Assembly (NCBI GenBank): GCA_025057405.1 | Contig: JANWXV010000001.1 | Coordinates: 1-24,153, forward strand | Length of the DNA stretch: 24,153 nt | Direction of reading: 5' to 3' | Source of the DNA: Candidatus Bipolaricaulota bacterium | GTDB lineage: Bacteria; Bipolaricaulota; Bipolaricaulia; RBG-16-55-9; DRXL01 | Shown here: one piece after another, positions 3,013 to 20,735 of the stretch | Position numbering within the stretch: position 1 is the stretch's first letter | How the letters are laid out: each line of letters starts with the position of its first letter | Made by a program: the position numbers and the translations under genes | The notes under the pieces: model-generated | Told to the model about the DNA's origin: nothing | The model's input: the letters and a program-made list of their open reading frames with translations, nothing else | Database searches by the model: none

Positions 3013-3474
3013 ATGCCCAAGATTTATAAGCTTTCGCGCACCCAAGTCGTGCCCGCGGATCTCGATAGAGTCTGGGAGTTCTTCGCCACGCCGCGCAACT
3101 TGAACGAGCTGACCCCGCCAGAGATGCACTTTGCTATTCTCTCAGGAGCGCAGGAGCCGATGTACACGGGGCAGCTCATCGAGTATCGGATTCGGCTTGT
3201 GCCCGGCGTTGTCGTCTCGTGGCTGACGGAGATCGTTCACGTCGAGCCGAAACGTCGTTTCATTGACGAGCAACGCTTTGGCCCCTATCAATTTTGGTAC
3301 CACGAGCATCGCTTCGAGCCGACCCAAGACGGAACGCGCATCGAAGACCACGTCACGTACGCGTTGCCCCTTGGAATAATCGGCGAGATGATGCACGCGC
3401 TTTGGGTGCGCCCGCGCCTAGAAGCGATCTTTGACTTTCGCGCGCACGCGATAGCCAAGATCTTTCCCGCCTAA
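3013..3474 (+). CDS. SRPBCC (START-like/polyketide cyclase) family protein
   Basis: ATG 3013, 1 nt after the previous stop. [18 protein letters not shown] and [19 protein letters not shown] are typical of this SRPBCC subfamily. The ORF-track start at 2953 is rejected. Confidence 0.85.
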
Positions 3475-3914
3475 AGACGAATCGGGGTAGGGTTCTGAAT
3501 CTGATGGGGATGCTCCGGCCCCGGATAGATCTTCAGTTTCTTGAGCATCCGGCGCCCTAGGACAGTCTTAGGGAGCATATTGCGCACGGCTTCTTCTAAC
3601 GGCTTAGCGGGATGGCGCTCGATCATCTCCGAGAACGTCCACGAGCGTAGCCCCCCCGGATAACGCGAATAGTGATAATAGATCTTCTGTTCGGGCTTCT
3701 TCCCCGTCAGTTTGATCTCTTTGGCGTTGATGACCACGACGTAGTCGCCCACGTCTACGTGAGGAGTATAGCTGGGCTTGTGCTTGCCCATGAGAATCTT
3801 AGCGATCTGGGAGGCCAAGCGCCCCAGCGTCTTACCGCGGGCATCTACCACCACCCAGTTGCGCTGAAAGCGCTTATTTAAATCTTCTCTTTTCATCAAG
3901 GTCGTATGCTGCAT
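3471..3914 (-). CDS. rplM: 50S ribosomal protein uL13
   Basis: [40 protein letters not shown] and YPGG motifs. AAGGAG SD. Confidence 0.98.
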
Positions 3915-4629: not shown

Positions 4630-5109
4630 ATGAATCAGCATCCTATGGAACGCGTCATCCCGGGACGGTATCCGACGCCCGATGTCCGTTACAACAGCAG
4701 AATGGTAGAAAAGCTGATTAATTACGTTACAAAAGAGGGCAAGAAGTCTATAGCTCGCAAGATCGTCTATGAAGCGTTGGATATTCTTAAAGAGAAGACG
4801 GGGGAGCAGCCGTTAGAGGTCTTTTACAAAGCTCTGAACAATCTCATGCCCAAGCTGGAGACGCGCTCGCGCCGCGTCGGCGGTTCGTCGTATCAGATCC
4901 CCTATGAGGTCCCCGAGGAGCGCCAGCGTACGTTAGCGCTGCGGTGGCTCGTCGGGGCTGCGCGCAACCGACGCGAACACTCGATGGCGGCACGCTTGGC
5001 TGCCGAGATGCTCGACGCCCTCAAAAACCAGGGCGAGGCCATCAAAAAACGCGAAGAGACCCACCGCATGGCCGAATCCAACCGCGCCTTCGCCCACTAC
5101 CGTTGGTAG
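4630..5109 (+). CDS. rpsG: 30S ribosomal protein uS7 (alternative start ATG 4645)
   Basis: GKKSIARKIVY, SRRVGGSSYQIP and HRMAESNRAFAHYRW motifs. The start codon is ambiguous. Confidence 0.98.
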   Translation: MNQHPMERVIPGRYPTPDVRYNSRMVEKLINYVTKEGKKSIARKIVYEALDILKEKTGEQPLEVFYKALNNLMPKLETRSRRVGGSSYQIPYEVPEERQRTLALRWLVGAARNRREHSMAARLAAEMLDALKNQGEAIKKREETHRMAESNRAFAHYRW

Positions 5110-5121
5110 GTCGATCCCCCT

Positions 5122-7209
5122 ATGAAAGCCCTCGGATACAACCTCGACAAGATTCGCAACATCGGAGTCATCGCCCACATTGACGCGGGCAAGACGACTA
5201 CTACGGAGCGCTTGCTCTTCTACACCGGGCGGATTCACGATATTGGCGACGTGGACGAGGGCGACACCGAGATGGACTGGATGCCCCAGGAGCGCGAGCG
5301 CGGCATCACGATCACGTCTGCCGCGACAACTTGCTTCTGGCGCGACCATCAGATCAATATCATAGACACCCCCGGTCACGTGGACTTCACCGCCGAGGTC
5401 GAGCGCTCGCTCAGAGTCCTCGACGGGGCTGTGACCGTCTTCTCTGGCGTCGATGGCGTCGAGCCGCAATCCGAACAGGTCTGGCGCCAAGCCGATAAAT
5501 ACGGAACTCCCCGCATCGCGTATATCAATAAAATGGACCGAATCGGCGCTAACTTCAAAGCCGCCGTCGAGTCTATGGTGCAGAAGCTGGGGGTGCGCCC
5601 GCTGCCCTTGCAGTTGCCCTACGGCGAAGGCGACCAGTTCGGCGGCGTCCTAGATCTGATTAAACAGAAGCTTATTATCTGGGACCCAAACTCCAAGGGA
5701 GCCAAGTTCGAATATCGAGAGATCCCCAAGGAGTATCTGGACGACGTCCAAGCCTATCGCGAAAAGATTTTAGAGAGCATCTCCGAAGTGGACGAAGAGA
5801 TTTTAACGAAATTTTTAGAAGGGCAGCCGATCTCGGAGGCCGAGATCCATCGCGGCGTGCGCCAGGCTTGTATTCGCCGAGAGTTTGTGCCCGTCGTCTG
5901 TGGCTCCTCGCTCAACAATATCGGCATTCAGCCGCTCTTAGACGCGATTGTGGACTATCTGCCCAGCCCGCTTGACCGCAGCTTCATCGAGGGCTTAGCG
6001 CCCAACGGCACGGGTGAATCTGCGAAGCAGCAGCGCCGCCCCACCCCCGATGAACCCCTCGCGGCGCTCGCCTTTAAAGTCCAGACCGACGAATACACCG
6101 GGCGCTTGGTCTATGTGCGCGTCTATTCTGGAAAGCTAGAGAAAGGCTCGTATGTCTATAACAGCACCACGGGCAAGACCGAGCGCATCGCCCGCATCTT
6201 TCATATGCACGCCAACAAGCGCACCGAAGTAGACGCCGTCACCGCGGGCAACATCGCGGCGGTCGTCGGCCCTAAAGAGTTGGTCACCGGCGACACGATC
6301 TGTGATCCGGAGAACCCGATTGTGCTGGAGAAGATCGAGTTCCCCGAGCCGGTCGTCACCGCTGCGATTGAACCCAAATCCGACGCCGATGAAGATAGAC
6401 TGAGCGAAGCCCTCTACAAACTCACCCAAGAAGACCCGACCTTCCGATATAACGTAGACCCCGAAACGAATCAGATGGTCATCTCCGGCATGGGGGAGCT
6501 GCACTTAGAGATTATCTTTGACCGTCTGAAGCGGGAGTTCCGCGTCGAAGCGAATATGGGCAATCCCCAGGTGGCCTATCGCGAGACGCTGGCCGAGTCG
6601 GTCGAAGTCGAGGAGAAGTTCGTCAAGCAGACGGGCGGGCGCGGGCAATACGCCCATGTCTGTCTGCGCTTTGAGCCGCTGCCGCGCGGTCAGGGCTTTG
6701 AGTTCGTAGATGAGATCAAGGGGGGGATCATCCCCCGGGAGTTTATCCCCGCGGTGCAGAAGGGCATCGAAGAGTCTCTCTCGAGCGGCCCCTTGGGAGG
6801 ATTCCCGATTGTAGATATTCGCGCTACGCTCTTTTACGGGTCGTATCACGCTGTAGATTCCAGCGAGATCGCCTTCAAGACCGCCGCGGCGCGCGCGCTC
6901 ACCCAAGCCTTCGAGAGGGCGAAAACCCATCTGCTCGAACCCATTATGACCGTCGAGGTCGTCACCCCGGAAGAGTACGTCGGGGAGGTCATTACGGATT
7001 TGCAGTCGCGGCGCTCGCAGATTACTTCTATGGAAGTGCGCAACAACGCTCAGATTATCGAAGCCTTAGTGCCGTTGGCCGAGACGTTTGGCTATGCTAC
7101 GCAGTTGCGCTCGATCTCCCAAGGCCGCGCGTCTTATCACATGCAGTTCTCGCACTACGAGATCGTTCCGGCATCGATTAAAGAAGAAGTCCTGAAGGGG
7201 AGAACGTAA
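5122..7209 (+). CDS. fusA: Elongation factor G
   Basis: [22 protein letters not shown] and NKMD GTPase motifs, plus MGELHL and PQVAYRET. 695 aa. Confidence 0.99.
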
Positions 7210-7210
7210 G

Positions 7211-7519
7211 ATGGCACGAGAGAAGATTCGCATACGATTAAGAGGCTACGATCACGAGCTGGTGGACGATGCGACCCGTAAGATCGTCAAGACCGCCCAA
7301 GAGACACGAGCGAAAGTGATCGGGCCGATCCCGTTGCCCACGGAGATCCATCGCTACACGGTGTTGCGGTCTCCGCACGTCAACAAGAAATCAATGGAGC
7401 ACTTTGAGCGCCGGGTTCATAAGCGCTTGATTGACATCAAAGAGCCGACATCGGAGACGATCAACGCGCTGATGGATATTCAGTTGCCCGCGGGCATTGA
7501 CATCGAGGTGAAGCTGTGA
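7211..7519 (+). CDS. rpsJ: 30S ribosomal protein uS10
   Basis: [18 protein letters not shown] and [14 protein letters not shown] motifs. Confidence 0.99.
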
Positions 7520-15049: not shown

Positions 15050-15622
15050 ATGGCGAAGAAGCAGAGTTCGAGTGCTGCAAGCTCCGGGGCCGGCACGGGG
15101 CAGCGCACGCGCGCCCGTGAGCGCGAGCGGCGTGCCCCTGTGGACGGCATGGAGAACGAAGTGATCGATCTGCGCCGTGTGGCTAAAGTGACTAAGGGCG
15201 GGAAGAATCTGAGTTTTCGCGCTACGGTGGTCGTGGGCAACGGTCAGGGGCGTGTGGGGATCGGCAAGGGCAATACGCGCGAGGTGCCCTCTGCGATTCA
15301 ACGCGCGATTCACGATGCCCGCCGACGGCTGATTCAAGTTCCGTTGATCGAAGAGCGCACGATCCCTCACGAAGTGTGGGGAAAATTTAAAGCATCGCGG
15401 GTCTTGCTCAAGCCGGCCTTCCCCGGCACGGGGATCATCGCGGGGGGCACGGTTGGGGCGATCTGTCGGCTCGCGGGGATTCGCGATATTCTCACGAAGG
15501 CCCGCGGCTCGACCAACCCGTTGACGCTGGCGCTGGCCACGCTCGACGGGCTGAGGCGATTGCGCACGCTTGAACAAGTAGCTCAAGTCCGGGGCAAGAA
15601 ACCCGAGGAGGTCTTGCAGTGA
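15050..15622 (+). CDS. rpsE: 30S ribosomal protein uS5 with N-terminal extension
   Basis: RVAKVTKGGK, VVGNGQG and PAFPGTGIIAGG motifs. Confidence 0.98.
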   Translation: MAKKQSSSAASSGAGTGQRTRARERERRAPVDGMENEVIDLRRVAKVTKGGKNLSFRATVVVGNGQGRVGIGKGNTREVPSAIQRAIHDARRRLIQVPLIEERTIPHEVWGKFKASRVLLKPAFPGTGIIAGGTVGAICRLAGIRDILTKARGSTNPLTLALATLDGLRRLRTLEQVAQVRGKKPEEVLQ

Positions 15623-19372: not shown

Positions 19373-19750
19373 ATGGCTCGTATCGCTGGAGTGGATCTGC
19401 CCAGCAACAAGCGCGTGGAGATCGCGCTCACGTATATTTATGGGATTGGTCGCCCGCGGTCGCGCGAGATCCTACAACAGGCACAGATTGACTTCAACAA
19501 GAGAGTCAAAGAGCTGACCGAGCAAGAGATCACGGCGTTGCGCAAAGAGATCGAGGCGAAGTATCAAGTAGAAGGCGACTTGCGTCGCAAGATTCAGAAC
19601 GACATCGCCCGTCTCAAAACGATCAAGTGCTATCGCGGCGTGCGCCACACCGTCGGGCTGCCGGTGCGCGGCCAGAAGACGCGCAGCAACGCCCGAACGT
19701 GGAAAGGCCCGCGCCCGGCCAAGGCCGGCAAGCGCGACAAGGCCAAGTGA
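19373..19750 (+). CDS. rpsM: 30S ribosomal protein uS13
   Basis: [15 protein letters not shown] and [21 protein letters not shown] motifs. Confidence 0.99.
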
Positions 19751-19761
19751 GGAGTTTCGGT

Positions 19762-20100
19762 ATGAGAAAGATTGACCGCGCGAGATTGCACGTGCACTCG
19801 ACGTTCAACAACACGATCTTGACTTTAACGGATTTGGAAGGGCGCGTTTTGGCCTGGGCCAGTCCGGGCACCCGCGGCTTTAAGGGCAGCAAGAAGGGCA
19901 CGCCCTACGCGGCGCAGTTGGCGTGCGAGACGCTGCTGGCCAAGATGAAGGAGATGGGGATTCGCTCGTTGATCGTCACGGTGAACGGAGCCGGCCAAGG
20001 CCGAAACGCCATTGTGAACACGCTCCGAGGCGCGGGAATACGCGTGGAAGATGTCAAGAACGTTACTCCGGTGAGCCACAGCAGCAGCAAGCTGATCTGA
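19762..20100 (+). CDS. rpsK: 30S ribosomal protein uS11, short (112 aa) with divergent C-terminus
   Basis: AGGAG SD at 19750-54. HSTFNNTI and GFKGSKKGTPYAAQ motifs. The protein ends NVTPVSHSSSKLI. Confidence 0.97.
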   Translation: MRKIDRARLHVHSTFNNTILTLTDLEGRVLAWASPGTRGFKGSKKGTPYAAQLACETLLAKMKEMGIRSLIVTVNGAGQGRNAIVNTLRGAGIRVEDVKNVTPVSHSSSKLI

Positions 20101-20114
20101 AAGGGAGAAGAATT

Positions 20115-20735
20115 ATGGGACGCCACACCGAAGCGAAATGTCGGCTCTGTCGTCGTGAGGGCGAGAAACTCTTTCTCAAGGGGGAGAAGTGTTACACCGA
20201 GAAGTGCCCGGTGGAGCGGCGCCCCTACGCTCCCGGCATGCACGTCACCAAGTTCGGGCGGCTGAGCCAATACGGCATTCACTTGCGAGAGAAACAGAAG
20301 GCCAAGCGCATCTATGGGCTGCGCGAGGAGCAGTTCAGAAAGTATGTGGCCCGTGCCAAGCGCGTGAAGGGCGTCACGGGTGACTTTCTGTTGGAGCTGT
20401 TGGAGCGCCGCATGGACAATGTCGTCTATCGAGCCGGGCTTGCGGTCTCGCGCGACCAAGCACGTCAGCTCGTCACGCACGGGCACTTTCTGGTCAACCA
20501 GCGCAGTGTGAATATCCCGTCGTTTCTGGTGCGGCCGGGAGATATTATCGAGCTGAAGCCCAATGCGTATGCCAAGCCGGGCATCAAAAATCTGTTGGAA
20601 TCCAAGCCGCGCCACAGTCCCCCAGCCTGGCTGGAGCGCAGCGACGGGCGCGTCCAGGTCTTAGATCGCCCCAAAGTAGACGAATTGGAGCACAAGCTGC
20701 AGATGCATCTCATCGTTGAGTACTATTCACGATAG
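20115..20735 (+). CDS. rpsD: 30S ribosomal protein uS4 (Zn-type)
   Basis: CRLCRREGEKLFLKGEKC, LREKQK, LERRMDNV and IVEYYSR motifs. Confidence 0.99.
   Translation: MGRHTEAKCRLCRREGEKLFLKGEKCYTEKCPVERRPYAPGMHVTKFGRLSQYGIHLREKQKAKRIYGLREEQFRKYVARAKRVKGVTGDFLLELLERRMDNVVYRAGLAVSRDQARQLVTHGHFLVNQRSVNIPSFLVRPGDIIELKPNAYAKPGIKNLLESKPRHSPPAWLERSDGRVQVLDRPKVDELEHKLQMHLIVEYYSR

What the first reader, a model, noticed from the sequence alone, without database searches (positions are those of the whole stretch)
19762..20100. uS11 has lost its near-universal C-terminal tail and most of its basic N-tail
Bacterial uS11 ends DVTPIPHNGCRPPKxRRV, and archaeal/eukaryotic orthologues keep a related basic RR(V/L) tail. 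Here it ends NVTPVSHSSSKLI-stop (20059-20100). The N-terminus is about 12 residues shorter than in E. coli, and GPGPGRES is GAGQGRNA. The tail threads into the 30S platform rRNA near the 16S 3' end/anti-SD region and the IF3 site. No alternative frame restores the motif.
Basis: partly seen in the sequence, partly recalled or inferred. Interest (0 to 1): 0.7.

Follow-up and report, generated by a model that had tools for sequence, protein, structure and literature searches.

The report
Phylum-wide clipped ribosomal protein uS11 tail
A whole phylum of uncultured bacteria (Bipolaricaulota) has lost the near-universal tail of ribosomal protein uS11 and the enzyme that modifies it, which a 2026 preprint already reported; new here is that the ribosomal RNA pocket that holds the tail has changed too and that no full-length partner protein bS21 is found.

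Summary
The only rpsK found (19762-20100) ends NVTPVSHSSSKLI-stop, and contigs from two studies match it exactly. The genome is a Bipolaricaulota member. All 56 distinct phylum uS11 sequences lack N119-G120 and the RPPKxRRV tail; 42/42 outgroup sequences keep xHNG and a full-length tail. YbeY, which makes isoAsp119, is found in 0/184 genomes. This truncation with YbeY loss is already published (bioRxiv 10.64898/2026.08.26.747336), and this scan noted it earlier in another genome (e1-4439005). Not found in the papers read: (1) the 16S h23 pocket is altered: C718 in 48/48 and U715 in 42/48, where A675-U715 occurs in 1 of about 2,077 bacteria in a published table; (2) full-length bS21 is found in 0/184; (3) a conserved 34-41-aa basic protein, seen so far only in this order, weakly resembles the C-terminal half of bS21 (not significant). 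The anti-SD, h24, h45, bS6, bS18, IF3, Era and KsgA are present, so this looks like a changed platform-assembly route, not lost SD initiation. The short N-tail is not phylum-wide. Whether the rRNA changes compensate or merely drifted is untested.

The parts
19762..20100 (+). rpsK, uS11, 112 aa, globular core intact, both tails short
20059..20100 (+). C-terminal end NVTPVSHSSSKLI-stop; N100 = E. coli D112, H106 = H118 (20077-20079), S107 = N119 (20080-20082); no Asn-Gly isoAsp site, no basic RPPKxRRV
19987..20010 (+). GAGQGRNA loop (E. coli G88-S95); E94 is N or Q in 56/56 phylum sequences and E in 42/42 outgroups
19762..19806 (+). short N-terminus, 15 residues to the conserved Phe against 27 in E. 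coli
19749..19754 (+). SD GAGGAG of rpsK overlapping the rpsM stop (19748-19750); supports the ATG at 19762 as the start
19373..19750 (+). rpsM (uS13), upstream neighbour, ordinary
20115..20735 (+). rpsD (uS4), starts 14 nt after the rpsK stop; ordinary alpha-operon order

Best explanation
This is the normal, sole uS11 of a Bipolaricaulota bacterium. An ancestor of the phylum truncated uS11 at about position 119 and lost YbeY, the enzyme that converts N119 to isoaspartate (shown: distribution; inferred: one ancestral event). In other bacteria the kinked isoAsp tail fits a groove of three purine-purine pairs in 16S h23, with H118 stacked on A718; it reaches on to h45 and anchors bS21 (published). 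With no tail to modify, YbeY is dispensable. The pocket has changed where the tail sat: A718 to C throughout, and A715 to U in most, making 675-715 Watson-Crick compatible as in archaea (shown). Full-length bS21 is not found (shown). The globular core still binds h23/h24 (inferred from fold and conserved residues), and initiation still uses SD pairing (shown at sequence level). The most likely mechanism is that the platform closes through RNA and the uS11 core, without the tail staple and without the isoAsp checkpoint. The rRNA changes are best read as local co-evolution that followed the loss, a mix of relaxed constraint and stabilisation. The 2-11 extra residues in about half the lineages, including this one, are secondary, unconserved ends.
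For: 56/56 distinct phylum sequences from all 11 sampled families lack N119-G120; 26 stop right after 119; 42/42 outgroups keep xHNG. YbeY: 0/184 genomes, 0/71 of the at least 90% complete ones, with 10/10 bacterial controls and 5/5 outgroup genomes positive; Era as completeness control 73/75. Same result in bioRxiv 10.64898/2026.08.26.747336. Role of the tail. 16S: C718 48/48 vs purine in 85/85 outgroups; U715 42/48 vs A in 85/85; A675-U715 in 1 of about 2,077 bacteria in the PMC7550191 supplement; 117 of 120 metagenomic 16S with U715 are Bipolaricaulota-like. Two of 16 phylum-signature positions fall in the 7-nt groove, hypergeometric P = 0.005, post hoc. bS21: 0/184 with PF01165 and none over cut-off in 75 with TIGR00030. 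KsgA, IF3, bS18 5/5.
Against: No structure or biochemistry exists for these ribosomes. The window's own genome has no assembled 16S; the same-genus G001 copy stands in. Five genomes keep A715, and three of those checked (G020, G024, G027) have truncated uS11, so U715 is not required. A pyrimidine at 718 also occurs in Bacteroides, Prevotella and Parabacteroides (about 38 of about 1,400 rows), and Prevotellaceae sampled here keep the canonical tail. bS21 is also missing from Thermus, Deinococcus, Thermotoga and Corynebacterium, which keep YbeY, so its absence may predate the truncation and be unrelated. One phylum is one evolutionary event; the order of events was not tested.
Confidence: 0.72

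Rival explanations
1. The tail's job is taken over in trans by a small basic protein. The 34-41-aa family found here (G000:C8:1108-1212 = L433:1108-1212:+) is the C-terminal half of bS21, starting at about residue 31. It lost the N-terminal part that docks on the uS11 body, and it now binds the h24/h45/3'-end cleft vacated by the tail.
For: It is a real gene: at least 13 homologues, SD in 8 of 9 starts inspected, 9 synonymous vs 2 non-synonymous codon differences to a close homologue. It is divergently adjacent to infB-DUF503-rbfA in family f3. Its best match in the PDB is bS21B residues 35-63 (E 0.05-0.34) and in NCBIfam is TIGR00030 (3/10 members, best E 0.08). uS11 E94 and D112 changed in 56/56; that these face the bS21 N-terminal part is from memory.
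Against: No match is significant. Shuffle p is 0.03-0.06 against three related bS21 and 0.09 against bL34; eL39 is the second PDB hit (E about 6); the sequence is low-complexity and the register is ambiguous by 1-2 residues. The genome-anchored copies are all from the window's own order (families f1, f3; P0007, P0011 and P0012 were not placed), whereas the truncation is phylum-wide. Its neighbours differ between families (osmC/uvrB in f1).
Confidence: 0.25
2. Pure relaxation. Loss of bS21 in a shared ancestor with Thermotogota and Deinococcota made the tail weakly selected; YbeY and the tail then decayed, and 715/718 drifted with no functional gain.
For: Patchy U715; variable junk ends after position 119; bS21 not found in Thermotoga, Thermus, Deinococcus or Petrotoga; unmodified N119 barely perturbs the rRNA in assembled E. 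coli 70S; the phylum was noted as poor in biogenesis factors.
Against: Those bS21-less lineages keep YbeY, and Petrotoga keeps the tail. C718 is fixed in 48/48, and A675-U715 is a specific Watson-Crick pair rather than scattered change. ybeY loss is costly or lethal elsewhere.
Confidence: 0.35
3. The lineage has a remodelled initiation system that does not use the anti-SD.
For: The tail lies near the 16S 3' end and bS21 is not found.
Against: The anti-SD and h45 are canonical, SD-like motifs are enriched 7-fold upstream of starts, IF3 is present 5/5.
Confidence: 0.05
4. Assembly error, pseudogene, recoding, or a split gene with the tail encoded elsewhere.
For: The genome is a 75% complete MAG.
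Against: Identical contigs in two studies; the same end in 56 sequences with all three stop codons; no tail remnant after the stop in any frame; no tail-like peptide in six frames of the genome.
Confidence: 0.01

Closest known systems
Bipolaricaulota truncated uS11 with loss of YbeY (Xue et al., bioRxiv 10.64898/2026.08.26.747336, Fig. 4d, S13)
   Same: Same phylum, same truncation after H118, same absence of YbeY, frameshift excluded.
   Different: The paper describes a stop at 120; here 30 of 56 sequences, including this one, carry 2-11 further unconserved residues. Its main text does not mention 16S 715, the 718 change in this phylum, or this phylum's bS21 status.
Canonical bacterial uS11-YbeY-isoAsp119 module (PMC7550191; bioRxiv 10.64898/2026.08.26.747345)
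   Same: Globular uS11 core, H118 (53/56), operon position, Era and KsgA retained.
   Different: No Asn-Gly, no basic tail, no YbeY, A718 to C, A715 mostly U.
YbeY-less lineages with G119-G120 (Dojkabacteria, Gracilibacteria, UBP14; same preprint)
   Same: Loss of YbeY with loss of N119.
   Different: They are described as substituting residue 119, not as truncating the chain; their 16S groove was not examined here.
bS21-less bacteria (Thermus, Deinococcus, Thermotoga, Corynebacterium)
   Same: No full-length bS21 found.
   Different: They keep YbeY; Thermotogota keep a purine at 718 and A715.
Archaeal h23 (U675-A715, C716) with Fap7-made isoAsp
   Same: Watson-Crick-type 675-715 pair.
   Different: Reversed polarity (A675-U715), and archaea keep the tail and isoAsp.

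Membership tests
uS11 (PF00411) | Profile match over the globular domain | tested here: met
   PF00411 E 1.3e-30; PRK05309 above cut-off; PDB uS11 hits E 1e-30
uS11 (PF00411) | Single copy in rpsM-rpsK-rpsD-rpoA-rplQ order | tested here: met
Canonical isoAsp-type bacterial uS11 | N119-G120 motif | tested here: not met
   S-S here; 0/56 in the phylum
Canonical isoAsp-type bacterial uS11 | Basic C-tail RPPKxRRV, ten residues after 119 | tested here: not met
   TIGR03632 below cut-off
Canonical isoAsp-type bacterial uS11 | YbeY encoded in the genome | tested here: not met
   0/184
Canonical isoAsp-type bacterial uS11 | 16S A675-A715 pair and purine 718 | tested here: not met
   Same-genus 16S has U715, C718; own 16S not assembled
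Bipolaricaulota truncated uS11 (published) | Keeps H118, lacks N119-G120, genome lacks YbeY, belongs to the phylum | tested here: met
Bipolaricaulota truncated uS11 (published) | Incorporated into active 30S | not testable with these tools
   Needs proteomics or cryo-EM
bS21 (PF01165), for the 34-aa protein L433:1108-1209 | Match above the family cut-off | tested here: not met
   No Pfam hit; TIGR00030 best E 0.08, below cut-off
bS21 (PF01165), for the 34-aa protein L433:1108-1209 | N-terminal strand and helix (residues 1-30) | tested here: not met
   Protein starts at about bS21 residue 31; a stop lies 8 codons upstream of the ATG
bS21 (PF01165), for the 34-aa protein L433:1108-1209 | C-terminal helix motif (Y-x-K-P...K-R-H) | tested here: inconclusive
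   Best hit in two libraries but E 0.05-0.3; shuffle p 0.03-0.06
bS21 (PF01165), for the 34-aa protein L433:1108-1209 | Binds the 30S platform | not testable with these tools
   Needs ribosome mass spectrometry or cryo-EM
bS22/mS38 (PF08213) as replacement | Present across the phylum | tested here: not met
   1/75 genomes
Anti-SD-less or anti-SD-sequestering initiation | Loss of CCUCC or of SD use | tested here: not met

The most novel reading that the evidence does not exclude
Bipolaricaulota ribosomes are a natural alternative design of the 30S platform: the uS11 tail staple and its isoAsp checkpoint are replaced by a rewired h23 pocket (A675-U715, C718), and in this order by a previously unannotated 34-41-aa ribosomal protein, a half-bS21 reduced to its RNA-binding helix, that occupies the vacated cleft.
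Probability: 0.25. Interest if true: 0.72.

Novelty: already known. Interest (0 to 1): 0.45.

Why it matters
Two 2026 preprints present uS11 isoaspartylation as a near-universal step of small-subunit assembly, and ybeY is essential in several bacteria. A phylum of free-living bacteria without the tail, the enzyme or a full-length bS21 is a natural bypass. The truncation itself is known, but the two rRNA changes give a concrete, cheap test: do A715U and A718C suppress the defects of a tail-less or ybeY-less E. coli ribosome? That would separate the tail's structural role from its bS21-anchoring role. The small basic protein is a candidate unannotated ribosomal protein.

Tried and rejected
Second rpsK, frameshift or read-through, separately encoded tail peptide: none found. 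16S in the own genome: not assembled. L137 (G013 16S, canonical-looking 715/718) is a chimera, 63-83% identical to family members over the first 750 nt and 93-99% after, so it was excluded; L156 was excluded for a misjoined 3' end. bS18 and bS6 show no extension resembling the lost tail. bS22 as general compensator: 1/75. RbfA loss: not phylum-wide, 23/31 over cut-off. ybeY's usual neighbourhood next to era is not conserved in three genomes, so synteny could not show the deletion. Complex prediction of uS11 with the small protein gave no verdict (score 0.00, partner fold uncertain) and is not counted either way. ESM Atlas gave only unnamed clusters with low recognition. The 34- and 37-aa queries were below the 40-aa limit of the homologue search, so their open frames (41 and 40 aa) were sent. 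The outgroup sample drawn from the phylum of G229 was taxonomically mixed and biased to top-scoring 16S; it missed the pyrimidine-718 Bacteroidales, so the published table was used for that. RNA run X4 holds only a relative about 90% identical, so it shows nothing about expression. One search was a mistaken alignment, timed out, searches were input errors. No paper linking Acetothermia to S21 absence was found.

Full report
Observation. The window is the str-S10-spc-alpha ribosomal cluster. rpsK lies at 19762-20100 behind an SD that overlaps the rpsM stop, and encodes 112 aa ending NVTPVSHSSSKLI. Aligned to E. coli K-12 uS11 it has no internal gap, starts 12 residues later, reads GAGQGRNA for GPGPGRES, and has S-H-S-S at 117-120 followed by four residues and a stop. 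It is the only PF00411 match in the 75% complete genome. No frame restores the motif and no tail-like peptide is encoded elsewhere in the assembly. Contigs from two studies cover 19881-20313 with no difference; one may be the source sample.

Distribution. The nearest relatives are labelled Bipolaricaulota, Acetothermia or Fraserbacteria. Among 56 distinct uS11 sequences covering all 11 sampled families, none has N119-G120 or a terminal RR(V/I/L); position 118 is H in 53, position 119 is S in 53; 26 stop right after 119 and 30 add 2-11 unconserved residues; D112 is N and E94 is N or Q in all. All 42 outgroup sequences keep xHNG, E94 and a 9-10 residue tail. The N-tail behaves differently: 15-19 residues to the conserved Phe in the window's order and some others, but 23-33 in several lineages. 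It is ordinary variation, not part of the phylum trait.

What the lost segment is. N119 is the isoaspartate site. It fits a groove of three purine-purine pairs, with H118 stacked on A718 (PMC7550191). YbeY makes the modification, and isoAsp119 contacts bS21 R35 (bioRxiv 10.64898/2026.08.26.747336). The tail bridges h23 and h45 during platform closure (bioRxiv 10.64898/2026.08.26.747345). YbeY was found in 0 of 184 phylum genomes, against 10/10 bacterial controls and 5/5 outgroups; Era, as a completeness control, was found in 73/75. The first preprint states this outright for Bipolaricaulota, including the three-frame check. The core of the finding is therefore already known.

The rRNA side. 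The own genome has no 16S, so 48 phylum copies, including the same-genus G001, were aligned with 85 outgroup copies on K-12 numbering. The anti-SD, h24 and h45 are canonical. Of 995 positions conserved in the outgroups, 16 differ in the phylum; two are 715 and 718, inside the published 7-nt pocket (P = 0.005, post hoc, one lineage; Thermotogota carry 16 signature positions on the stricter identity criterion, so the phylum's 16S is not unusually divergent overall). C718 is in 48/48 and U715 in 42/48, with A675 kept in 47/48. In the published table A675-A715 occurs in 2,065 bacteria and A-U in one; archaea have U-A. A metagenome scan that fixed U715 in an otherwise general pattern returned 120 sequences, 117 of them 83-100% identical to Bipolaricaulota references, all with a pyrimidine at 718; the three others had A718. 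Limits: genomes that keep A715 still have short uS11, and pyrimidine 718 also occurs in Bacteroidales. So U715 is near-diagnostic but not required, and C718 is fixed but not exclusive. Neither change appears in the preprint's main text.

Partners. Full-length bS21 was found in 0/184, and nothing passed the cut-off of a second model in 75. It is also missing from Thermus, Deinococcus, Thermotoga and Corynebacterium, which keep YbeY, so it may be an older loss. bS18, bS6, IF3 and KsgA are present. SD-like motifs stand upstream of 116 of 317 long ORFs against 16 in a control window. Initiation looks conventional.

A lead. Sub-threshold bS21 hits and a scan for small basic ORFs exposed a 34-aa gene in the own genome (G000:C8:1108-1212, L433) and a 37-aa homologue in G019. 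The family has at least 13 members of 34-41 aa with invariant K3, P10-K11-W12, R14-K15, K19, A22 and R24-R25, SD motifs and a synonymous bias. In family f3 it sits divergently beside infB-DUF503-rbfA. Its top PDB match is bS21B residues 35-63 and its top NCBIfam match is S21p, but at E 0.05-0.3; eL39 comes second; shuffle p is 0.03-0.06. It begins where the bS21 segment that meets the uS11 tail begins. It is not filed as bS21, since it fails the cut-off and lacks residues 1-30, and its genome-anchored copies are all from the window's order.

Mechanism. Shown: truncation, absence of YbeY and full bS21, altered 715/718, intact anti-SD. Inferred: the uS11 core still binds h23/h24 and the platform closes without the tail staple or isoAsp checkpoint, with the pocket co-evolving afterwards (0.72). 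How much of the rRNA change is functional is open; pure drift remains plausible (0.35), and replacement in trans by the small protein is less likely (0.25). These readings overlap in part.

Verdict. Real and unusual, but the central fact was published in August 2026 and was noted earlier by this scan on another genome. The added rRNA and bS21 observations make it directly testable. Interest 0.45; novelty: already known.

Noticed in passing
G000:C8:1108-1212 (L433:1108-1212:+); L428:1468-1581:-; L436:4544-4666:+; L441:3861-3968:-; L443:794-901:-: Unannotated conserved 34-41-aa K/R-rich protein with SD and synonymous bias; weak resemblance to the C-terminal half of bS21 (second: eL39); candidate small ribosomal protein.
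   Followed up: partly
window 4630-5109 (rpsG); L331-L335: uS7 lacks the usual N-terminal Pro-Arg-Arg start here and in 5/5 phylum genomes (begins ...V/M/K-I/F-P-G-R); 16S U1381A and C1383U are fixed in 48/48. A possible second protein-tail/rRNA co-change (proximity of the two is from memory).
   Followed up: partly
16S loci L111-L160: U20C, A915G and A1080G are fixed across the phylum at positions nearly invariant elsewhere; C20-G915 looks compensatory near the central pseudoknot. U20C lies in the 27F primer site.
   Followed up: no
16S loci L111-L160, position 1516: The h45 loop is AGAA instead of GGAA in 26/48 copies although KsgA is present.
   Followed up: no
L425:1304-1590 (G023): A true bS22/COX24-type gene (PF08213) directly upstream of rpmH, found in only 1 of 75 phylum genomes.
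   Followed up: partly
G000, G001, G002: RbfA not found in any of the three genomes of the window's genus (75, 93, 93% complete) but found over cut-off in 23 of 31 genomes searched.
   Followed up: partly
window 3471-3914, 7209-7211, 15619-15622: rplM stands alone on the minus strand without rpsI; no tuf between fusA and rpsJ; no rpmD between rpsE and rplO.
   Followed up: no
window 19373-19750 (rpsM): uS13 reads NAR(T/S)WKG in the phylum sequences examined, where outgroups have NARTRKG.
   Followed up: no
L137 (G013:C55): The 16S of this MAG is chimeric: the first 750 nt come from another organism.
   Followed up: yes
L033, L034, L042, L047, L048, L050, L052, L055: Several public MAGs titled Thermotogae or Thermotoga carry the Bipolaricaulota-type uS11 and are probably mislabelled; L033 and L034 are the same-family genomes G008 and G014.
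   Followed up: partly
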